Below the pieces are notes generated by a model that worked only from the letters and a program-made list of their open reading frames with translations, made no database searches and was not told the DNA's origin. A DNA stretch of 64,000 nt, taken from NCBI GenBank assembly GCA_034188985.1, contig JAXHVT010000066.1, positions 8,064 through 72,063 of the forward strand, in the 5' to 3' direction. The position numbers were made by a program, and so were the translations under genes. Positions 14,700 through 52,178 of this stretch are shown piece by piece. Numbering within the stretch: the first letter of the stretch is position 1; each line of letters begins with the position of its first letter. The DNA is from Actinomycetota bacterium (lineage in GTDB: Bacteria; Actinomycetota; Geothermincolia; Geothermincolales; RBG-13-55-18).

Positions 14700-14824
14700 A
14701 CTCCGGGGAATGGAGAGGTACACTCACCTAGATCTCATCCCGGATTGCATGGCCGCCGGGTAGTCATCTCCCCGCGTAGCCGCATGGCGGAGACCGCTGT
14801 GCAAGTCTCTCACGATTTGGTCGA

Positions 14825-15322
14825 TTAAGTCTTTCTCCATCCGGCGATAAGCCTGCCGCATTCCTTTGCGGGAAGCCTCCTGCCCCTGGCGACCATTTTC
14901 TCCAGCGCATCGCTGGCATCCCTGGCATCGAAAACGCCGGATTCGACAAGTCGATCCAACAACCAGAGCGTACCATGTACCACGACACCTTCCCCCTCGG
15001 CGGCTTTCCTTAAAGCCTTGTCTCCGGTTAGAAGAGGCATTTTTCTCGATACGGCGATCCCCAGGAGAATAGCGTCGTTTCTCTTGATGGCTGGGTACCT
15101 CACGATGTAGGTTATCAGGCTTTGGAGTGTGGGGCCATCGAGCCCTATCGCTCTTAATCCCATGTCGGCGAGGTCTGAGACGCTGGGAGTTTCCAGTTCA
15201 TCATGCATTATCAGGTCGGTCGTTAAGAACTCGAAGTAAGACTCGAACAAGTAGTTGAGTGATTCCCCCGCCACGAAGTCGAATATAATGCAGGCGTCGA
15301 TCAGGAAAGACGTTCTCTTCAC
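14825..15322 (-). CDS. PIN-domain protein (COG2405-like putative nuclease)
   Basis: Conserved acidic residues (LIDACIIFD, HDELE, LTGDKALRKAA) and C-terminal GTLWLL motif typical of PIN; lies 6 nt downstream of the HTH-ImmA gene in a lower-GC island. Confidence 0.6.
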   Translation of the reverse strand: MKRTSFLIDACIIFDFVAGESLNYLFESYFEFLTTDLIMHDELETPSVSDLADMGLRAIGLDGPTLQSLITYIVRYPAIKRNDAILLGIAVSRKMPLLTGDKALRKAAEGEGVVVHGTLWLLDRLVESGVFDARDASDALEKMVARGRRLPAKECGRLIAGWRKT

Positions 15323-15328
15323 TGATGG

Positions 15329-16453
15329 TCACTTTACAGTTTCTTCGTCCGTCAAGGGCCAGAACAAACCGGCGTATTGTGAGGGAGAGAAAATATCCTT
15401 CGCGCTTTTCAGTGAAGAAGGCGCGATCTCCCGAATACCGGTCGCCACATCCACATACGATGAGCCCAGGAGTTCGACCGCCTTTGACTCGGAGATTACC
15501 TCCTCGGCCAGAAGATGCAGGATGATCTTCTCCATCCTTTTGGGTTTATCGGGTTCTATTTGATCGAAGGGCTCCCGTTTATCGAAATCATTGCTCCTGA
15601 AATACTTAAAAAAAGCCATGTAGAAGCCGCTTCCTATAATCCCGAGATCCTTGGCCCTGTAAACCCACGCCTGCATGCTCAGCTTGTACTTCCGTTTCAA
15701 TAGATACAACTCGTTCAGGTTTAGGGCGTGCCTTTTATGTCCCAACTCCTCGTATACGAGTTCCCTGGGTACCAGGAAAGCACCCGCGAACCGGTGGGCC
15801 GCTTTCTCCTCGTCGATCCCATCTCCCAACAGCATTAGCAGATGACCGAGTTCGTGGGCGAGATTGAAGAACTGCCGGTCACCGGGCAGTTTGTCCTTGA
15901 GGGCGATGACGGGGTCCTCATCGGCGTAGAAGGTGCATGCGTCGAATTCCCGGCATGCTTCGAAGAGGCCTATCTTCACGCCCCTGTCCTCGAGGATATC
16001 GATCATGCTCTCTACGGGATCGAGTCCCAGGCCCCAGTGGTTACGCAGATTGACGGCTATTCCCTCGATATCTTCAAGTTTCTCTGCAAACCTGTTCATA
16101 TCAACCGGTAGGCGTTTCCTGAACTCGATCCTTGAGGGAAGCAGGCTTTCGGCCTCCATGTATCTTTCCACCCACTCCCTTACCTGCCCGGTCAGCTTCT
16201 GCTCCTGTTTCCTGGGCATGGACAGGCGGCAGCGAAAAGCCATCGCCTTTAACTCGGGGCCCACCGGCCGCAGAAAGAACTCGGTCTTGATACCCAGGGC
16301 TTTCGCCAGCCTTACAAGCACTCCCGAGCTGGGCATGTCATGCCCGTTCTCGTATTTCGATATGGCCATGGCGCTGACGCCCGAAGCCTCTCCCAGCGCC
16401 CTCTGGCTCAAGCCCTTCATGTGGCGTGCCATCTTGATCCTCTCGCCGATCAT
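15329..16453 (-). CDS. XRE-family HTH fused to ImmA/IrrE (M78, COG2856) zinc metallopeptidase
   Basis: N-terminal Cro/C1 HTH (LSQRALGEASGVSAMAISKYENG); HEXXH (HELGHLL) peptidase motif; RBS GGAGG before ATG 16453. Confidence 0.8.
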   Translation of the reverse strand: MIGERIKMARHMKGLSQRALGEASGVSAMAISKYENGHDMPSSGVLVRLAKALGIKTEFFLRPVGPELKAMAFRCRLSMPRKQEQKLTGQVREWVERYMEAESLLPSRIEFRKRLPVDMNRFAEKLEDIEGIAVNLRNHWGLGLDPVESMIDILEDRGVKIGLFEACREFDACTFYADEDPVIALKDKLPGDRQFFNLAHELGHLLMLLGDGIDEEKAAHRFAGAFLVPRELVYEELGHKRHALNLNELYLLKRKYKLSMQAWVYRAKDLGIIGSGFYMAFFKYFRSNDFDKREPFDQIEPDKPKRMEKIILHLLAEEVISESKAVELLGSSYVDVATGIREIAPSSLKSAKDIFSPSQYAGLFWPLTDEETVK

Positions 16454-16571
16454 GCCAGCCACCTCCTTTCACCGGTTTACACAATAGCAAATATATTTCT
16501 ATATGTAAACTGCTAAGCCTGGAAGTTGATTTCCTGAAATGTCACCATGTACTGGTAAAATATAGTGTCGA

Positions 16572-18419
16572 ATGAAGGCTATTGCAGGGCGATTTAACGG
16601 TATGCCCGTTTGCTATGTTTTTCTGTCAAAGCTCCTTAGCGGGAATCTGTTATTAACAGACGGGAAAGCATTCCCCTATAGCAACTACAACAAGCGAAAT
16701 TATGAGCATACTGCAGAGGAATTACGGGCTAATGAAGATTGGCATAGGGGAATATTACCTGACGAGGAGGAACAAAGACTGAGGCGATTAACCGTTTCTC
16801 CTTCAAGGGAGAAGCTCGCACCAATAAGAGACTGCAATTTGGAGGCTCAACGGTTAATCTCACAAGCCAAAGATTTATGTGGCAGGTCCGTCACGACCCG
16901 TGTTATTGAAGATTTGAAGAACAGGCCCAGTGTTAATAGATGGGTCGAACAAGGCCTTCAACTCCATGCCGAACAACAATCTCCAAAGTGCCTCTTCTGT
17001 AATCAATCTCTACCACCGGGTCATCTTGCCAGGCTGGAAGCTCATTTCAGTGAAGAATACAAGCAGCTCATCGGTGAAGTAGGGAAACTGGAGCATGATA
17101 TTGAAGAAGAACGCAAGCGATTGGAATCAGGCCGCTTACCCGAGAAGGCATTATTGTATGAAGAATTCCAAGATGATTATGGGAATGCTATTGAAAGATA
17201 CGAAAGCGAGAAAGAGGGGTACCTGGACCTCCTTGATTATCTGCAGAACCGGCTGGAATCCAAAAAAGAAGATCCCTTCATGGATATTCAATGTGATTAT
17301 GAATCTTGGCGGATAGATATGGAAACCATGTCAAGCGTGAACGGATTGATAAGAAGACACAATGAAATGAGCGATAATTTTCAGAGAAAAGTTGAAGAGG
17401 CAAGGAGGGAACTCGAGGAGTCATATGTGGCGAAGGAGCTTGTACGGTTCACCGAATTGAGTGATCAGAAAAAATCCCAAGAGGAAATGATCAATAAGCT
17501 TGATAGAGAATTGTCCGGTATAAAGGAAAAGATCGAGCAACTGGAGCTGGGTATCAAGGATCATCTGCGGCCAGCGGAAGAATTGAACGAAGAGATCGGG
17601 CAATACCTAGGGCATGACGAGCTTCGCTTTGAGGCCAGCGAGGCCGAGGCAGGCTATAGCATTGTCCGTGAAGGGGAGCCCGCACGCTCATTATCCGAAG
17701 GGGAAAAGACGGCTCTGGCTTTTCTATATTTTCTGAGAACACTTACGGACAAGGATCTCGAGATAGAAGAAGGAATCGTTGTGATTGACGACCCTGTTTC
17801 CAGCTTGGATTCAACCTCACTGTACAATGCTTTTGGCTTTATGAAGGATCGTGTACAAGAGGCAGGTCAACTATTTGTTCTTACCCATAATTTCCTGTTC
17901 TTCCGGCAGGTTAAGAACTGGATGTCATATCTTAAGCAAAGAAAGAAGAAAGATATCGGATTTTATATGCTTCTTACCGAAAATGTGATAGATGGAAGAT
18001 GTTCTAGCATCGTGATATTAGATGAATTATTGAGAGACCATGAGACTGAATATCACTATCTTTTCAAACTTGTTTATGAAGCCGCAAATAGCGAACCTGG
18101 CAAAGGGAAGTTGCGAGACTACTATCATCTGCCAAACGTGGCACGCAGGCTTATGGAGGCTTTCCTTGAATTTACATTTCCAAATGAGAAGAATCTATAT
18201 TCAAAGATAGATCAAACAAATATCCTTGCAGCAAAGAAGGCGCGAATTAAGAGATTCTGTGATACTCATTCGCATAACGCTAGAATAAGCCAGCCTGAGC
18301 ATGATGCTTCAATCCTCGGTGAAACGCCGGCGATTATGAAAGATATCATGGTAATGATAGCCGAAACAAATCATGATCATTATGATCGCATGAAGGAGCT
18401 GGTGACCCCATCATCATGA
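16572..18419 (+). CDS. AAA_13-family (PrrC/RloC-like) ABC-type ATPase with C-terminal Rx4H (HEPN-like) nuclease motif; appears 5'-truncated and is probably non-functional
   Basis: ABC signature LSEGEK, Walker B/D-loop VVIDDPVSSLD, zinc-hook-like CLFC, H-loop THNF, C-terminal KRFCDTHSH (Rx4H). No Walker A (GxxGxGKT) anywhere; only about 140 aa precede the CxxC where full-length relatives have about 260. Lower GC than surroundings. Confidence 0.6.
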   Translation: MKAIAGRFNGMPVCYVFLSKLLSGNLLLTDGKAFPYSNYNKRNYEHTAEELRANEDWHRGILPDEEEQRLRRLTVSPSREKLAPIRDCNLEAQRLISQAKDLCGRSVTTRVIEDLKNRPSVNRWVEQGLQLHAEQQSPKCLFCNQSLPPGHLARLEAHFSEEYKQLIGEVGKLEHDIEEERKRLESGRLPEKALLYEEFQDDYGNAIERYESEKEGYLDLLDYLQNRLESKKEDPFMDIQCDYESWRIDMETMSSVNGLIRRHNEMSDNFQRKVEEARRELEESYVAKELVRFTELSDQKKSQEEMINKLDRELSGIKEKIEQLELGIKDHLRPAEELNEEIGQYLGHDELRFEASEAEAGYSIVREGEPARSLSEGEKTALAFLYFLRTLTDKDLEIEEGIVVIDDPVSSLDSTSLYNAFGFMKDRVQEAGQLFVLTHNFLFFRQVKNWMSYLKQRKKKDIGFYMLLTENVIDGRCSSIVILDELLRDHETEYHYLFKLVYEAANSEPGKGKLRDYYHLPNVARRLMEAFLEFTFPNEKNLYSKIDQTNILAAKKARIKRFCDTHSHNARISQPEHDASILGETPAIMKDIMVMIAETNHDHYDRMKELVTPSS

Positions 18420-18933
18420 GTATTATCGGAGTAAGCTTCTTAAAGATGGGGCAATCAACCGGAGCCGGAACCAATCTGGTGTGGTAGTGCTCCTTCGCCG
18501 GGATGATCGAGAAAATCCTCCGCGGGTACCGGAACCAAGCCATCGAAACGCTGCAGGTCATAGAGAACTTGATCGGACTGTCGAGTTAGATGCTCGAGGT
18601 CGGACGCAGGGGTGAATACCTGGGGCTTGTGGAGAAAGAGATGGACTTCCAAGATGCTTTTAAGGCAAACCATAGCGCGGTTAGAGTCTAGAGTGAAGAA
18701 GCGCTCCCGGTTGTTGTGAAGGTGGTAACCAAGACGGTGTGTACAGGGGTTGTCATCATTAAGCGGCAAGGGTTAGTGCCTGCGCAAACCCGCGAGGGTT
18801 GGTGAGGCGCACCTCGATTAAGCGAGGTCATCCTCCTTCGATTGACAAGTATGGGCCGCTGCCCGATACTCGGATGAGTGCCTCATATCGATGAGGCGGC
18901 GCACGAATAGAGCCGAGCCGAAAGATACTGGAT

Positions 18934-48824: not shown

Positions 48825-51383
48825 TCATTCCTCCCCCGGGGGATCCGCCTCCGGCAGTGTGGTGGGCCGCAGCGCCGGCGGGGTCTCCATTTCGGTACCG
48901 GTCGGCCCCCCCGCCGCCGGTGAGGTCGCCCGCGCCTCCCGGCGCTTTGTCTCGCGGCTGGCTATAATGGCCAGTAGGCTGGGAAGCACCAGCACCGCTC
49001 CGAAGAGGGCCCCGAGGAGGGCTACGGCGGTAGTGATACCGAACCTCTGCATCATGGTCATGCCGGAGGCGCCCAGTATGGCGAATACGCCGCAGGTGGT
49101 GAGAGCCGCGGCCAGCAGGGCCCTCCCCACGTGCAGGACGGTGTTCTTGATAGACTCGTCCAGTGGGGTTTCCCCGTGACTCCACTCCTCGCGGAAGCGG
49201 TGGGTGATATGGATACCGAAGTCGATGCCCGCCCCTATTACCAGCGAGGAAACCATCACCGTCATGATGTCCAGCGGCCATCCCAATGCGAAGAGCAAGA
49301 TGATCTCCACAAATACGCCGCACATTACCACCACCAGCGCGGCCAGCCCATATGCCAGGGACCTGAAGACGACAATCAGGACAAAGGCGCAGAGGAGCAG
49401 GGCCAGGCCCGAGGTCTTGAGCTGGGTGGGTAGGATGTTGCCCAGCAGGTCGGCCACCAGGAAGGTCATGCCCGTGGAGCTGAGGTCCATCTGCGACTGC
49501 TCCTCGACGGCGGCGGCGTGGTCGCGTATGATATCCGCCTTGAGACGGTACTCATCCTCGACGTCCGGGTAACCAGAGGTTAAGCTTATCATGGCATAGG
49601 TAGCGCCCTCATCATTCTTGACCAACTGGTTCACGTCCATCTGCTGGCCCAGCAGGGCCACAGTCTCCTCCACGCCCTGCCGGGAGTCGGGAAGCTCCCC
49701 GCCGTTGGCCTTTTTCACCAGGTCGGCTAGAGAGACGATCCTATCGCGCGAGAAATAGTCCTCGCTATCCGGTTGATTGCGCACATCGTTGGCTATGGCG
49801 TCCTTCATCCCTAGCAGCAACTCCAGGTTCTCAGGCTCGTAGACGTCCCCTTTCACCAGGACGACGTCGCTGCTCTGGGGACCGAAGTAATCGGTTACAA
49901 GCAGCGAGGCTTCCCGGCTGGGCATGCCCTCTGGGAACATCTTAGTAACGTCGGCGCCGGTCTTGACGTTGAAGATGGCGAAGACGGCGAAGCCCACCAG
50001 CAGCAGGGTTATCACCGTCACCGTCCAGTGGTGGCGCTCCGAAACCAGGGCCATCCTCACCAGGGCGCTGTCGGTTATGCGCCCGTACCAGGCGTCGCGC
50101 CGCCTGGCGCGCATCTTATCCAGGTGGGCCTCCAGCTTCTCCTTCCTCTTCCTGCGGTCCCGGATGACCACGATGGCCGGTAGCAGGGTGAGCGAGAGCA
50201 GGAAGCTGAAGGCGATCCCCAGCACGCACAGCAGCCCGAAATCCCGCATGGGGGGCATGTCGGTGATCATGAAGGAGGAGAAACCGATCATGGTAGTGAC
50301 GGCGGTGAGGAACACCGCCACCCCCACCGTTTTAACCGAGGTGGTGGCGGAGAGATTGACGCTCTCGCCGTCCTCCCTCTCCTCGTAGTAGCGGCTCAGC
50401 ACATGGATGACGTAGGCGATGTTGATACCCAGCATCAGGGGCATGACGGCGATGCTCATGGTGGTGTAGGCGATGCCCGCCCAACCCATCACCCCCAGGA
50501 TCCAGGCGATGGCCACGAAGATAATAAGCAGAGGCAGTGCTATATCCGAGAAACGCCGGAAGGTGAGGTAGAGGATGAGCATGACGAACAGGAAGGCTAT
50601 GAGCATCAGCTTATTGGTCTCCCTCTGCATGAATTCTTTGGAGTCCTTTTGCATGGAGGCGTTTCCGGCGATATAGGTCTCCAGGCCCTCGATGTCCCCG
50701 AACTCATCGGCCACGAAATCGTCCAGCTTCTCGGCCAGCTCCACCTGTTCGTTCTCGCTGAGGTCCGGGCTCACCTGGAAGCTGATGAGGGCCGCGGTCC
50801 TGTCCTCGTTGATGCTGCCTCCCACGACTCGCTCGCTATTGTCCATGAATATGGCCATCGTCTGTTCGCGCATCTCCTCGGGCATCTCGTACCCTAAGAG
50901 GGCCTCGAAGTCCCCCAGGATGGTTGAAGAGGGATCGGGATCCACGTAGAAGTCCAGTATTTGCGCGAGCATGGCGTCGTCGATAGGTATATCTTCGAAC
51001 GATATCTCGAGTCCAAGATTCTCGGGCATTGTTTTTAGAAAATCGAGATAGGTCTCCACATTGAGGATCTCTCCCTCCTCGAAGCCCTCCTCCGCCATCA
51101 TCTCCGAGGACAGCTCGAGGAGCTTCTCCGTTATCTCCGGGGAAGTGATGTCGTCCGCCACCAGCAGCACGTTCTCGTAGGAGATGCCACCGAACCTGTC
51201 ACCCACCTCCTCCAGGGCTTGAACCGATTCATAGTCCTCGGGCATCATCGCCTCCTGGCTCAGCTCGGTGGTGATGCGGGGAAAGCCCGCGGCCAGGAAC
51301 AGCGTTATAAGGGTAACCGCCAGCACTACCAGCCAGGGCCTTTTCTCCGAGATGCTGGCCAGATATCCGAATATCTTCTTCAC
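48825..51383 (-). CDS. MMPL/RND-superfamily membrane transporter
   Basis: 852 aa with two 6-TM bundles separated by large periplasmic loops; MMPL-type organisation. Confidence 0.8.
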   Translation of the reverse strand: MKKIFGYLASISEKRPWLVVLAVTLITLFLAAGFPRITTELSQEAMMPEDYESVQALEEVGDRFGGISYENVLLVADDITSPEITEKLLELSSEMMAEEGFEEGEILNVETYLDFLKTMPENLGLEISFEDIPIDDAMLAQILDFYVDPDPSSTILGDFEALLGYEMPEEMREQTMAIFMDNSERVVGGSINEDRTAALISFQVSPDLSENEQVELAEKLDDFVADEFGDIEGLETYIAGNASMQKDSKEFMQRETNKLMLIAFLFVMLILYLTFRRFSDIALPLLIIFVAIAWILGVMGWAGIAYTTMSIAVMPLMLGINIAYVIHVLSRYYEEREDGESVNLSATTSVKTVGVAVFLTAVTTMIGFSSFMITDMPPMRDFGLLCVLGIAFSFLLSLTLLPAIVVIRDRRKRKEKLEAHLDKMRARRRDAWYGRITDSALVRMALVSERHHWTVTVITLLLVGFAVFAIFNVKTGADVTKMFPEGMPSREASLLVTDYFGPQSSDVVLVKGDVYEPENLELLLGMKDAIANDVRNQPDSEDYFSRDRIVSLADLVKKANGGELPDSRQGVEETVALLGQQMDVNQLVKNDEGATYAMISLTSGYPDVEDEYRLKADIIRDHAAAVEEQSQMDLSSTGMTFLVADLLGNILPTQLKTSGLALLLCAFVLIVVFRSLAYGLAALVVVMCGVFVEIILLFALGWPLDIMTVMVSSLVIGAGIDFGIHITHRFREEWSHGETPLDESIKNTVLHVGRALLAAALTTCGVFAILGASGMTMMQRFGITTAVALLGALFGAVLVLPSLLAIIASRETKRREARATSPAAGGPTGTEMETPPALRPTTLPEADPPGEE

Positions 51384-51452
51384 AATATCGCGCCCCCTAT
51401 CTTAGTTGTTGAGATCTCGATCGCGATCCTTGCCCGCTTCGAGACGATGTCT

Positions 51453-51899
51453 CTATCTCTGTTCTCCCTGTTCCAGGCTCTGCTCTATACCCTTCACCAG
51501 GGCGAGCAGGACCTCTCTATCCTCTTCGGATACCGGATGCAGGAGTTCCTTCATCATATCCAGGTTGTCCTCCTCGAGTCTCCGGATTACCTTCAGGCCT
51601 TTTTCGGAAACGGATACCATGACAACGCGGCGATCATCGCGGCTCCTCTCCCGCTTCACCAGGCCTTTCTCCACCAGCCGGTCCACCATGCGCGTGGTCA
51701 CTCCCTGGTTTACCTCCAGGTGCTGGGACAGCTCGCTCATGCTGAGGGCCCCGCTGTGGCTCAGCTCCATCAACAGCACGCCCTGGGGAGGGGAGAGCTC
51801 GATATCCTCTTCGGTAAGGGTGGTATTGCGGAACTTGCGCATGATGCGGATTATGATGTTCCAGAGTTCCTGTATATAGACTTCGAGTTCGTCTTCCAT
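51453..51899 (-). CDS. MarR family transcriptional regulator
   Basis: Winged-helix MarR core (...LSMSELSQHLEVNQGVTTRMVDRLVEKGLVKRERSRDDRR...). Confidence 0.8.
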   Translation of the reverse strand: MEDELEVYIQELWNIIIRIMRKFRNTTLTEEDIELSPPQGVLLMELSHSGALSMSELSQHLEVNQGVTTRMVDRLVEKGLVKRERSRDDRRVVMVSVSEKGLKVIRRLEEDNLDMMKELLHPVSEEDREVLLALVKGIEQSLEQGEQR

Positions 51900-52178
51900 G
51901 TTCCTTGCTAATACTAATATTTGCTGATAACAATTATTCGCAATCGAACATAATACATCTTGTATCGTCATGTCAAGGGCTTTCATTAAGCTTCTTTTCG
52001 GGAGGGCCTCAACCGGAAATACCTCAAGCTCGGAGACCTCTTTTCCACAACCGGATATCGCCGTTGACGGTTCGCCACGGGGTGAAACCCAATGACGGTG
52101 AACGGGTGGATCGAGGACCCGTTCCCCCGAATGTAGTAAGGTGATATGAGGGGAGTGATCGAGAGAGGATGCCTGAAG

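What the first reader, a model, noticed from the sequence alone, without database searches (positions are those of the whole stretch)
14825..18419. Lower-GC island with a fused HTH-ImmA/IrrE protease gene, a PIN nuclease and a decapitated PrrC/RloC-like ATPase: remnant of a defence locus
GC content drops visibly across about 14.8-18.9 kb. The island encodes on the minus strand an XRE-HTH fused to an ImmA/IrrE (HEXXH) peptidase, followed 6 nt later by a PIN-domain protein. Divergently it encodes an AAA_13-family protein with ABC signature, Walker B, Zn-hook CxxC and a C-terminal Rx4H motif. All three protein classes are typical of phage-defence and abortive-infection modules. The HTH-protease plus PIN pair has the layout of a toxin/antitoxin-like switch, where the protease-linked repressor would be inactivated on a stress signal.
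Basis: partly seen in the sequence, partly recalled or inferred. Interest (0 to 1): 0.6.

Follow-up and report, generated by a model that had tools for sequence, protein, structure and literature searches.

The report
Toxin-antitoxin cassette beside wrecked RloC/restriction locus
A 4-kb foreign, low-GC insert holds one intact two-gene "repressor-protease plus PIN nuclease" module of an already predicted kind, next to the dead remains of an anticodon-nuclease gene and a restriction-enzyme gene; it is a tidy but ordinary example of defence-island decay.

Summary
GC falls to 0.44-0.55 over about 14.75-18.83 kb, against 0.62-0.65 in the flanking genes.

- **Intact cassette.** The HTH+M78 protein (PADLOC RmrA, 175 bits; HELGH intact) and the 165-aa DUF3368/COG2405 protein form a conserved two-gene unit. 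The 165-aa protein has a PIN fold (AF2 pLDDT 94; all top PDB hits are VapC/PIN). In 78 of 79 surveyed loci the same HTH-M78 gene lies directly upstream. A conserved palindrome, GGTT(T/G)ACA-N20-23-inverse, overlaps its promoter.
- **Dead rloC.** The AAA_13 gene is an RloC-type anticodon nuclease that has lost about 150 N-terminal codons, including Walker A. The zinc hook, ABC signature, Walker B and the R-x3-E-x38-SH triad are kept. Published Walker A mutants of RloC and PrrC are inactive.
- **New here.** Positions 18473-18706 are a stop-ridden fragment of a type I restriction subunit gene (hsdR). A related MAG has the two flanking genes adjacent, with a 163-nt spacer. AAA_13 never accompanies the cassette elsewhere (0 of 90 loci), but type I R-M genes do so often.

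The architecture was already predicted by Matelska 2017 and Ernits 2023. This is a new member of a known kind, of low to moderate interest.

The parts
14825..15322 (-). PIN-like nuclease gene of the COG2405/DUF3368 clade (165 aa), the presumed toxin or effector of the cassette
   Evidence: DUF3368 scores 30.2 bits, above its cut-off; PIN PF01850 scores 17 bits, below its cut-off. D9, D15, D36, D83 and T99-G100-D101 are invariant in 25 homologs. The AF2 model has pLDDT 94.4. All top Foldseek PDB hits are PIN/VapC proteins (1y82, 5h4h, 1v8o, 3tnd; probability 1.0, TM 0.6-0.7). A profile search of PDB sequences hits only PIN proteins.
15329..16462 (-). Fused XRE-type HTH and M78 (ImmA/IrrE-type) zinc peptidase gene, the presumed repressor/antitoxin. 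The likely true start is the ATG at 16453 (374 aa), preceded by AGGAGG
   Evidence: HTH_3 scores 54.8 bits and Peptidase_M78 45.9 bits. PADLOC RmrA scores 175 bits over residues 3-331. NCBIfam spr1629 antitoxin scores 135 bits, below its cut-off of 335. The HELGH motif (H203, E204, H207) and E219 are invariant. The HTH domain's best PDB sequence match is ImmR of ICEBs1 (7t8i, E 7e-11). The AF2 model has pLDDT 86, and its best fold hits are IrrE 3dti, PprI 8sln and CapP 7t5t. The NCBI protein P0152 is 374 aa. The Shine-Dalgarno sequence was read.
16475..16510 (.). Operator-like inverted repeat GTTTACA-N22-TGTAAAC. It overlaps a minus-strand promoter-like site (TTTACA-17-TATTGT, 16509 to 16481) that would drive the cassette
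   Evidence: The same palindrome type, GGTT(T/G)ACA-N20-23-inverse, lies 10-20 nt upstream of the HTH-M78 start in most related loci. The best inverted-repeat arm is at least 8 nt in 62% of 81 upstream regions, against 3.7% of shuffled controls.
16572..18419 (+). 5'-truncated RloC-type anticodon-nuclease gene (rloC'). It lacks about 150 N-terminal codons including Walker A, and homology to full-length proteins begins about 17-25 codons into the ORF
   Evidence: AAA_13 scores 399 bits over profile positions 152-712 of 713. PADLOC PDC-S06 scores 643 bits over positions 167-737 of 740, and PrrC gives E 1.2e-8. In alignment A2 with 743-762-aa homologs, the GWNGxGKT motif is absent. No N-terminal fragment is found in the window. 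C140/C143, LSEGEKT, DDP, THN and R525-x3-E529-x38-S567-H568 are all retained. Of the columns invariant in the 8 full-length homologs, 115 of 125 are kept, within the control range. This protein is absent from the NCBI sources although its two neighbours are present there.
18473..18739 (+). Pseudogene fragment of a type I restriction enzyme R subunit (hsdR, C-terminal domain) with in-frame stops
   Evidence: tblastx and tblastn match the HsdR of locus L012 at residues 879-956: 50% identity over 78 aa, E 2e-15, with 3 in-frame stops. Pfam T1RH-like_C PF11867 scores 55.9 bits (cut-off 26.8) over profile positions 198-276 of 329.
18842..18870 (+). Promoter-like site of the flanking flippase gene (TTGACA-17-GATACT). 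It is host sequence and marks the right border of the island at about 18.83 kb
   Evidence: The site matches 10 of 12 consensus positions. The motif 'cgattgaca...catact' is shared with the 163-nt SDR-flippase spacer of the related MAG L019.
14700..14824 (.). Left border zone between the SDR stop codon and the PIN stop codon. It carries no recognisable repeat, att site or gene fragment

Best explanation
A horizontally acquired island of about 4.1 kb (about 14.75-18.83 kb) lies between an SDR gene and a polysaccharide flippase gene. It has two unrelated contents.

**(1) An intact two-gene cassette.** It consists of an XRE-HTH fused to an M78 zinc peptidase, followed by a PIN-like (COG2405/DUF3368) nuclease.
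- The most likely working model is a Rosmer-like toxin-antitoxin or abortive-infection switch.
- The HTH-M78 protein binds the palindrome over its own promoter and keeps the operon low. It also neutralises the PIN protein.
- A trigger activates the peptidase, which cuts the HTH or neutralising part in cis or in trans. By analogy with ImmA, IrrE and CapP, the trigger could be DNA damage, single-stranded DNA or a phage product.
- This releases and over-expresses the PIN RNase, which arrests growth.

**(2) The wreck of a type I restriction-modification-linked RloC locus.**
- The rloC gene has lost its first ~150 codons, including Walker A, so it can no longer activate its anticodon nuclease.
- An ~80-codon fragment of hsdR, broken by stop codons, also survives.

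**Shown here:** gene identities, folds, motif retention, the truncation, the hsdR relic, absence of the island from a relative, conservation of the pair, and conservation of its palindrome.

**Inferred:** toxicity of the PIN protein, neutralisation and autorepression by the HTH-M78 protein, protease gating and its trigger, and inactivity of rloC'.
For: **Composition and foreign origin.**. The empty site is in L019, where the SDR and flippase genes are 64% and 85% identical at the protein level and sit 163 nt apart.

**Cassette.**
- Pfam, PADLOC and NCBIfam hits.
- PIN fold and invariant acidic residues.
- Invariant HELGH motif.
- ImmR-like HTH and IrrE/PprI/CapP-like peptidase fold.
- HTH-M78 lies directly upstream on the same strand in 78 of 79 surveyed metagenomic and viral loci, and in 3 of 3 inspected plasmids, in unrelated neighbourhoods.
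- Conserved promoter-overlapping palindrome.
- Published support: fused HTH-DUF955 upstream of COG2405 PIN proposed as a novel TA (PMC5499597); the ImmA/Rosmer antitoxin node linked to PIN-like toxins, with RmrA confirmed as an antitoxin in other Rosmer systems (PMC10440598); CapP cleaves CapH when bound to ssDNA (10.1101/2022.04.27.489752).

**rloC'.**
- Truncation and retained motifs.
- The triad fits the published R-X3-E-X36-52-(S)H motif (PMC2610378).
- Walker A mutant K44A abolishes RloC ACNase activity in vivo (PMC3458546).
- PrrC K46 and T47 are essential, and the isolated nuclease domain is non-toxic (PMC3025547).
- A full-length homolog lies in an hsdM-hsdS-AAA_13-GmrSD-hsdR operon.

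**hsdR relic.**
Against: - No experiment exists for any HTH-M78/COG2405 pair, so toxicity and neutralisation are assumed from the architecture.
- The Pfam PIN model itself is below threshold. No PADLOC RmrT model matches the PIN protein, so defence catalogues would not call this a Rosmer system.
- The AF2 model shows an all-helical C-terminal region rather than the GAF domain that helps form the ssDNA-binding groove in IrrE and CapP. The ssDNA trigger therefore may not transfer.
- rloC' is a clean 615-codon ORF with normal retention of conserved residues, while the neighbouring hsdR fragment has 3 stops in 78 codons. This fits a recent truncation but does not exclude continued selection on the headless protein.
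- Weak promoter-like sites lie just upstream of rloC'.
- No mobility signature (repeats, tRNA, integrase) explains how the island arrived.
Confidence: 0.7

Rival explanations
1. The HTH-M78/PIN pair is mainly a regulator of a neighbouring defence operon, not a stand-alone toxin-antitoxin. It would act as a fused CapH-CapP-type, damage-responsive controller with a VapC-like accessory. In the window it has been orphaned by the loss of the type I R-M genes it once controlled.
For: - In 13 of the 20 hsd-linked loci, an hsdR or hsdM reading frame opens on the same strand within 70 nt of the PIN stop.
- 17 of 90 surveyed loci carry type I hsd genes, and 6 of the 25 with long flanks do.
- The HTH domain superposes on R-M controller C-proteins (C.AhdI, C.BclI; TM 0.8-0.9) and on CapH.
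- Lau et al. list a DISARM locus with a vapC-like gene plus a CapH-CapP fusion-like gene.
- Matelska et al. note PIN-like genes that appear transcriptionally coupled to type I R-M.
- The window carries an hsdR relic.
Against: - Most loci with long flanks (19 of 25) show no detected hsd gene, and the pair occurs between ordinary metabolic genes. The cassette therefore persists on its own.
- In the window the hsdR relic is on the other side of rloC' and is not downstream of the PIN gene.
- A pure regulator does not need a nuclease with a conserved active site.
- The hsd detection used few reference proteins, so the counts are rough.
Confidence: 0.2
2. The pair is a selfish addiction module with no role in phage defence. 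It survives in the island because its loss kills the cell, which would also explain why it outlived the R-M and rloC genes.
For: - It is a compact two-gene layout with translational coupling or overlap.
- It occurs on plasmids: 45 PLSDB records, 34 of them conjugative or mobilizable.
- It lies next to other TA genes such as PemK and RelB.
- It is the only intact part of a decayed island.
Against: - Other RmrA-type systems protect against phage (PMC10440598).
- The pair is enriched beside R-M genes.
- It is found on 10 IMG/VR viral contigs.
- Addiction and defence are not mutually exclusive.
Confidence: 0.25
3. The headless RloC protein is still functional. One example would be a nuclease or ATPase-lid protein expressed from the divergent promoter region and placed under control of the HTH-M78 repressor.
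For: - The ORF is intact over 615 codons in AT-rich DNA.
- It keeps 92% of the columns invariant in homologs, and all ten changes are conservative.
- Promoter-like sites lie at 16534-16566, next to the operator.
- The neighbouring hsdR relic is far more decayed.
Against: - Walker A is indispensable in RloC and PrrC, and an isolated PrrC nuclease domain is inert.
- No Shine-Dalgarno sequence precedes either candidate ATG.
- The protein appears only in a Logan source and not in the NCBI sources, although both neighbouring genes' proteins are listed there.
- Other short database entries are frameshift-split genes that retain their N-terminal part.
- No other pair locus has an AAA_13 gene.
Confidence: 0.05
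4. The juxtaposition is an assembly artefact, that is, a chimeric MAG contig.
For: In an independent Logan assembly of run SRR24907504, the sequence breaks into two contigs inside the HTH-M78 gene. They overlap by only 30 nt, at 15732-15761.
Against: - Both Logan contigs are 100% identical to the window.
- One carries SDR, PIN and the HTH-M78 3' part. The other carries the HTH-M78 5' part, rloC', the hsdR relic and the flippase gene. Each junction of interest is therefore reproduced.
- The HTH-M78 ORF is continuous and aligns end to end with its orthologs across the break.
Confidence: 0.03

Closest known systems
HTH-DUF955 (COG2856) + COG2405/DUF3368 PIN-like predicted TA systems (Matelska, Steczkiewicz and Ginalski 2017, NAR; PMC5499597)
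   Same: The architecture is identical. A fused Xre-HTH and M78 peptidase gene, with a conserved HEXXH motif, lies directly upstream of a COG2405/DUF3368 PIN-like gene. That paper proposes the same idea of a protease-gated repressor/antitoxin, and it also notes links between PIN-like toxins and type I R-M.
   Different: Nothing structural differs. The window protein has a C-terminal tail about 20 aa longer than its orthologs, and a 6-nt gap where they usually have a roughly 20-nt gene overlap. The published system is a prediction only, and the papers searched report no experiment.
Rosmer (RmrTA) anti-phage toxin-antitoxin systems (Millman 2022; Ernits 2023, PMC10440598)
   Same: The antitoxin-type protein matches 14 PADLOC RmrA models (up to 175 bits) across nearly its whole length. 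NetFlax links the same ImmA/Rosmer antitoxin node (D25) to PIN-like toxins.
   Different: The partner matches no RmrT model. Characterised RmrT toxins, such as the one from phage Kita, depolarise the membrane and are not nucleases. Phage protection was not tested here.
ImmR/ImmA (ICEBs1), DdrO/IrrE-PprI (Deinococcus) and CapH/CapP (CBASS) repressor-protease pairs
   Same: The HTH domain is most similar to ImmR (7t8i, E 7e-11). The peptidase fold is closest to IrrE, PprI and CapP. The shared logic is a repressor inactivated by a cognate M78 peptidase.
   Different: Here the repressor and peptidase are one polypeptide. The C-terminal region is all-helical, with no GAF domain. The regulated cargo is a PIN nuclease rather than an integrase, DNA-repair genes or CBASS. 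The trigger is unknown.
RloC, the wobble-nucleotide-excising anticodon nuclease (Davidov and Kaufmann 2008, PMC2610378), and PrrC
   Same: It shares the AAA_13/COG4694 family, a CxxC zinc hook within a coiled-coil insert, the ABC signature, Walker B with D-loop, the switch His, and the ACNase triad R525-x3-E529-x38-S567-H568. A close homolog is embedded in a type I R-M operon.
   Different: The first ~150 residues, including Walker A, are deleted and are absent from the window. From published mutants the protein is therefore expected to be inactive.
PADLOC candidate system PDC-S06
   Same: This is the best-scoring model for the AAA_13 protein: 643 bits, E 2e-193.
   Different: Only profile positions 167-737 of 740 are matched, so the N-terminal ATPase lobe is missing.

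Membership tests
PIN domain superfamily, COG2405/DUF3368 clade | Match to Pfam DUF3368 (PF11848) above the gathering score | tested here: met
   30.2 bits against a cut-off of 27.3, residues 115-158. Homologs are precomputed as PF11848, some with PF01850 as well.
PIN domain superfamily, COG2405/DUF3368 clade | Match to Pfam PIN (PF01850) above the gathering score | tested here: not met
   17 bits against a cut-off of 23.6; only profile positions 82-119 align.
PIN domain superfamily, COG2405/DUF3368 clade | PIN fold | tested here: met
   The AF2 model has pLDDT 94.4. All listed Foldseek PDB hits are PIN-like nucleases, mostly PIN/VapC (1y82, 5h4h, 1v8o, 3tnd), at probability 1.0 and TM 0.6-0.7 for the best. 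An HMM search of PDB sequences hits only PIN proteins.
PIN domain superfamily, COG2405/DUF3368 clade | Conserved acidic active-site residues | tested here: met
   D9, D36, D83 and D101 (plus D15) are invariant in 25 homologs. Their clustering in three dimensions was not measured.
PIN domain superfamily, COG2405/DUF3368 clade | Metal-dependent nuclease activity and toxicity | not testable with these tools
   Requires expression and RNA-cleavage assays.
Rosmer (RmrTA) | RmrA: HTH and M78 peptidase antitoxin | tested here: met
   14 PADLOC RmrA models match; the best is 174.6 bits, E 6.8e-52, residues 3-331.
Rosmer (RmrTA) | Adjacent RmrT toxin recognised by RmrT models | tested here: not met
   The neighbouring protein's only PADLOC hit is PDC-S70 at E 0.01. 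No RmrT model matches.
Rosmer (RmrTA) | Protection against phage | not testable with these tools
   Requires cloning and phage challenge.
ImmA/IrrE/CapP M78 peptidases | Peptidase_M78 domain with an HEXXH zinc site | tested here: met
   PF06114 scores 45.9 bits against a cut-off of 22. H203-E204-L-G-H207 and E219 are invariant in 27 homologs. Fold hits include IrrE 3dti, PprI 8sln and CapP 7t5t.
ImmA/IrrE/CapP M78 peptidases | C-terminal GAF-like domain that forms the ssDNA groove (IrrE and CapP) | tested here: not met
   In the AF2 model, residues 278-344 are helices only and the tail is disordered. The GAF role is described in PMC13228613.
ImmA/IrrE/CapP M78 peptidases | Separate cognate HTH repressor as substrate | tested here: not met
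   The HTH is fused to the N-terminus of the same polypeptide. Fifteen such CapH-CapP fusions are reported in CBASS loci.
NCBIfam spr1629 family repressor/antitoxin (NF052239) | Score above the curated cut-off | tested here: not met
   135.3 bits against a cut-off of 335.
RloC anticodon nuclease | AAA_13/COG4694 family membership | tested here: met
   PF13166 scores 399 bits. JGI names several homologs 'wobble nucleotide-excising tRNase'. The PADLOC PrrC model gives E 1.2e-8.
RloC anticodon nuclease | Walker A (P-loop) at the N-terminus | tested here: not met
   The GWNGxGKT motif of the homologs has no counterpart. No N-terminal fragment is found in the window on either strand.
RloC anticodon nuclease | CxxC zinc hook within a coiled-coil insert | tested here: met
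   C140 and C143 (CLFC) are invariant. The coiled coil itself was not computed.
RloC anticodon nuclease | ABC signature, Walker B with D-loop, and switch His | tested here: met
   LSEGEKT, VVIDDPVSSLD and T438-H439 are invariant.
RloC anticodon nuclease | ACNase triad Arg-X3-Glu-X36-52-His, often with Ser before the His | tested here: met
   R525-x3-E529-x38-S567-H568; R525, E529 and H568 are in invariant columns. The motif definition comes from PMC2610378.
Type I R-M HsdR subunit | T1RH-like_C domain | tested here: met
   PF11867 scores 55.9 bits against a cut-off of 26.8 on the translation of 18500-18739 with stops masked.
Type I R-M HsdR subunit | Intact full-length ORF with helicase/ResIII and nuclease domains | tested here: not met
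   Only residues equivalent to 879-956 of a 1024-aa HsdR remain, with 3 in-frame stops. No other HsdR similarity is found in the window.

The most novel reading that the evidence does not exclude
HTH-M78/COG2405-PIN cassettes may be 'restriction-linked' modules in the same sense as PrrC and RloC. They would be protease-gated controller-plus-toxin units that often sit at the head of hsdR or hsdM operons, sharing one palindromic operator. On a damage or anti-restriction signal they would both induce the type I R-M genes and release a PIN RNase as a second line of defence. On this reading the window shows a fossil: such a cassette has outlived its R-M and RloC neighbours.
Probability: 0.15. Interest if true: 0.55.

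Novelty: new member of a known kind. Interest (0 to 1): 0.3.

Why it matters
Taken alone, the locus is a textbook snapshot of defence-island turnover. A selfish two-gene cassette stays intact while a neighbouring anticodon nuclease and restriction enzyme are deleted and decay.

The comparative by-products are more useful than the locus itself.
- The pairing of HTH-M78 with COG2405 PIN is almost invariant (78 of 79 loci).
- A family-wide palindromic operator gives a concrete DNA target for experiments.
- The cassette is frequently joined in an operon-like way to type I R-M genes.

No member of this cassette family has been tested. It is compact and widespread in metagenomes, and it also occurs on plasmids and on viral contigs. 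It is therefore a reasonable candidate for a toxicity, neutralisation and phage-defence assay, and for asking what activates a fused repressor-protease that lacks the GAF sensor domain.

Tried and rejected
- **Mobility signatures.** No flanking direct or inverted repeats. The only tRNA is at 46.5 kb. No integrase was seen. No Rfam family matches in 14.3-19.3 kb.
- **Displaced 5' part of rloC.** It might have been moved by insertion or inversion of the cassette. tblastn with eight N-terminal queries against the whole window gave nothing better than E 0.05, so it is a true deletion.
- **The 104-aa minus-strand ORF at 18455-18769.** By eye it looked like a degenerate IS200/Y1 transposase. It has no Pfam hit and no tblastn hit in plasmids. 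The idea was dropped once the plus strand of the same DNA proved to be an hsdR fragment.
- **Recurrent natural 'short form' of RloC.** Database entries of 592-631 aa suggested this. Both entries whose loci were examined are frameshift-split genes with the N-terminal ORF still adjacent and with different break points, so the idea was rejected.
- **Chimeric contig.** Rejected, because the independent Logan contigs are 100% identical and overlap inside a continuous, orthologous ORF.
- **Exact-sequence look-up of the 377-aa ORF.** It failed because NCBI starts the gene at the ATG three codons further in, giving 374 aa.
- **Metagenome scan with the 25-sequence PIN alignment.** It was repeated successfully with a 10-sequence alignment.
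- **Close DNA relatives of the island.** None were sought. The best protein identities are only 42-57%.

Full report
**Observation.** The low-GC island is real. One-kb bins read 0.52, 0.50, 0.44 and 0.49 for 15-19 kb, against about 0.60-0.66 around it.

The island has two compositional parts:
- the minus-strand pair has GC 0.53-0.55 and GC3 0.65-0.70;
- the plus-strand AAA_13 gene has GC 0.437 and GC3 0.445;
- the flanking SDR and flippase genes have GC 0.62-0.65 and GC3 0.84-0.88.

The window comes from a MAG labelled Actinomycetota.

**The cassette: what the two proteins are.** The 377-aa protein has an HTH_3 domain (54.8 bits) and a Peptidase_M78 domain (45.9 bits).
- It matches 14 PADLOC RmrA (Rosmer antitoxin) models over almost its full length, the best at 175 bits.
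- It stays below the NCBIfam spr1629 antitoxin cut-off.
- HELGH (H203, E204, H207) and E219 are invariant in orthologs.
- The HTH domain's best match among solved structures is ImmR of ICEBs1, the natural substrate of ImmA.
- The AF2 model (pLDDT 86) is closest in fold to IrrE, PprI and CapP. Its HTH superposes on R-M controller C-proteins, CapH and the P22 c2 repressor.
- Its C-terminal ~70 ordered residues are all-helical, so it lacks the GAF domain of IrrE and CapP.
- The real start is probably the ATG at 16453, preceded by AGGAGG.

The 165-aa protein passes Pfam DUF3368 but not Pfam PIN.
- Its PIN nature is nevertheless well supported. D9, D36, D83 and D101 are invariant in 25 homologs.
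- The AF2 model has pLDDT 94.4.
- All leading Foldseek hits in the PDB are PIN/VapC proteins.
- A profile search of PDB sequences finds only PIN proteins.

**The cassette: how it behaves across genomes.** I collected 80 metagenomic and 10 IMG/VR loci with a PIN-family profile. To these I added loci from exact look-ups and plasmids.
- Of the 79 surveyed loci with enough upstream sequence, 78 have an orthologous HTH-M78 gene directly upstream on the same strand. The remaining one has it on the opposite strand.
- Neighbourhoods are otherwise unrelated: metabolic genes, other TA genes, a TniQ element, CRISPR genes.
- The pair is therefore a self-contained mobile two-gene unit. It occurs on 45 PLSDB plasmids.
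- None of the 90 surveyed loci carries an AAA_13 gene. The pair and the RloC-like gene are not one system.
- By contrast, 17 of 90 loci carry type I R-M genes, as do 6 of the 25 with long flanks, and this is a lower bound. In 13 of the 20 hsd-linked loci, an hsdR or hsdM frame opens within 70 nt of the PIN stop on the same strand.

Upstream of the HTH-M78 start, most loci have a palindrome of the form GGTT(T/G)ACA-N20-23-inverse, 10-20 nt from the start codon.
- The best inverted-repeat arm is at least 8 nt in 62% of 81 loci, against 3.7% of shuffled controls.
- The window has GTTTACA-N22-TGTAAAC at 16475-16510. It overlaps a promoter-like TTTACA-17-TATTGT on the minus strand.
- This assigns the AT-rich 110-nt intergenic region to the cassette. 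It also gives a plausible operator for autorepression, which is an inference.

**The AAA_13 gene is a beheaded rloC.** Pfam AAA_13 aligns from profile position 152 and PADLOC PDC-S06 from position 167.
- Full-length homologs are 743-762 aa and begin with GWNGxGKT.
- Homology in the window begins about 17-25 codons into the ORF.
- No N-terminal fragment exists anywhere in the window on either strand.
- What remains is complete: CxxC (C140/C143), LSEGEKT, VVIDDPVSSLD, TH, and R525-x3-E529-x38-S567-H568.
- That last motif fits the published RloC triad Arg-X3-Glu-X36-52-(Ser)His (PMC2610378).
- The closest named homolog sits in an hsdM-DUF1016-hsdS-AAA_13-x-GmrSD-hsdR operon, the classic PrrC/RloC niche.
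- Walker A mutants of RloC (K44A) and PrrC (K46, T47) are inactive, and the isolated PrrC nuclease domain is inert (PMC3458546 and PMC3025547). The headless protein is therefore expected to be dead, which is an inference.

The remnant retains 115 of the 125 columns that are invariant in eight full-length homologs. Controls range from 91% to 99%, and all ten changes are conservative. The truncation therefore looks recent.

Both other short database entries whose loci I examined are frameshift-split genes that keep their N-terminal ORF. That is not the case here.

**A second relic and the borders.** The 410 nt after rloC' contain a fragment of a type I HsdR C-terminal domain on the plus strand.
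- Positions 18473-18706 are 50% identical over 78 aa to residues 879-956 of the HsdR in locus L012, with three in-frame stops.
- Pfam T1RH-like_C scores 55.9 bits.
- The right part of the island is therefore the wreck of a type I R-M-linked rloC locus.

In a related MAG (L019, Actinobacteria bacterium SURF_21) the SDR and flippase genes are adjacent with a 163-nt spacer. The flippase promoter-like motif there is shared with window 18836-18870.
- This puts the island at about 14.75-18.83 kb.
- A second relative (L018) has different, metabolic cargo at the same site.
- How the island arrived is unknown. I found no repeats, tRNA, integrase or Rfam hit.

**Mechanism.** The best-supported model is a Rosmer-like, protease-gated toxin-antitoxin or abortive-infection switch.
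- HTH-M78 represses its own promoter at the palindrome and neutralises the PIN protein.
- A signal activates the M78 peptidase to cut the repressor or neutralising part.
- This frees and induces the PIN RNase.

The steps shown here are the domain identities, the folds, conservation of both active sites, the obligate pairing and the conserved operator. Toxicity, neutralisation, self-cleavage and the trigger are inferred. ssDNA sensing as in CapP or IrrE may not transfer, because the GAF domain is missing.

A rival reading is that the cassette is a fused CapH-CapP-type controller of an adjacent defence operon. The operon-like joins to hsdR/hsdM support it, as does the DISARM example in Lau et al.. 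The many stand-alone copies argue against it.

**Comparison with what is known, and novelty.**
- The exact architecture, fused HTH-DUF955 upstream of a COG2405/DUF3368 PIN, was described and interpreted as a novel TA by Matelska et al. 2017. They also noted PIN-like genes coupled to type I R-M.
- Ernits et al. 2023 link the ImmA/Rosmer antitoxin node to PIN-like toxins.
- RloC and its R-M linkage are well characterised.
- By PADLOC models the locus is not a Rosmer system, because no RmrT model matches.

The verdict is a new member of a known, still unvalidated, kind, lying next to ordinary gene decay. Interest is low to moderate. The transferable results are the family-wide operator and the quantified R-M linkage.

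**Caveats.**
- The hsd detection used a handful of reference proteins, so counts are lower bounds.
- The survey loci were chosen by similarity to the PIN protein, which cannot reveal HTH-M78 genes paired with other toxins.
- One close HTH-M78 homolog (P0154, 56% identical) sits without a PIN gene, beside a methylase fragment and a DUF499 gene.
- An independent Logan assembly breaks inside the HTH-M78 gene at 15732-15761. Both contigs are nevertheless 100% identical to the window and overlap there.

Noticed in passing
window 15732-15761: The Logan assembly of run SRR24907504 splits here, inside the HTH-M78 gene, into two contigs that overlap by 30 nt. Both are 100% identical to the window. This suggests a branch in the assembly graph, for example a strain variant or a second similar HTH-M78 copy in the sample.
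   Followed up: partly
L020 (Vibrio fluvialis pIDH5335-1), L021 (Sulfuricurvum pSULKU03), L055, L071, L076, L079, L083, L084, L107, L112: In many loci the HTH-M78/PIN cassette is followed within 0-20 nt, on the same strand, by hsdR or hsdM, or it sits between hsdM/S and hsdR. It looks co-transcribed with type I restriction-modification genes.
   Followed up: partly
upstream of the HTH-M78 genes in L023-L112; window 16475-16510: A family-wide palindrome, GGTT(T/G)ACA-N20-23-TGT(A/C)AACC, lies 10-20 nt before the start codon. The arms resemble a -35 box. It is probably the operator of the fused repressor.
   Followed up: partly
L018 12230-14190 and L019 8312-8474: The SDR-flippase junction varies between related Actinomycetota MAGs. 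It is empty (163 nt) in L019. In L018 it holds a GC-normal, apparently frameshifted metabolic gene and a short tandem repeat (GCACTCACCTCGGCT / GGCACAAGC units).
   Followed up: partly
window 18420-18835 versus 16572-18419: The hsdR relic has GC about 0.54, similar to the cassette and unlike rloC' (0.44). It carries 3 stops in 78 codons, whereas rloC' has none in 615. The two relics therefore differ in age or in origin.
   Followed up: no
P0133: A 972-aa homolog combines HsdM domains (HsdM_N, N6_Mtase) with AAA_13 in one protein. This would be a physical fusion of a type I methylase with an RloC-like protein.
   Followed up: no
L113-L116: The closest HTH-M78 homolog (P0154, 56% identical) has no PIN partner. 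It lies between a 104-aa N6_Mtase fragment and an 879-aa DUF499 protein, with a Y1 transposase-like gene nearby. This may be another decayed or re-partnered defence locus.
   Followed up: no
P0224, P0237: Two 434-aa HTH-M78 homologs carry an added nucleotidyltransferase domain (PF18765/PF01909). This hints at partner or domain swapping within this antitoxin family.
   Followed up: no
L117, L118, L120 versus L119: Downstream of one and the same HTH-M78 protein (P0159), the PIN gene is 166 aa in one contig but is called as 126 aa, with no DUF3368 hit, in three others. The toxin gene may be truncated or frameshifted in part of that population.
   Followed up: no
window 51001-52000 and 1-1000: Two further, milder GC dips (0.538 and 0.548) appear in the 1-kb profile. 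They were not examined.
   Followed up: no
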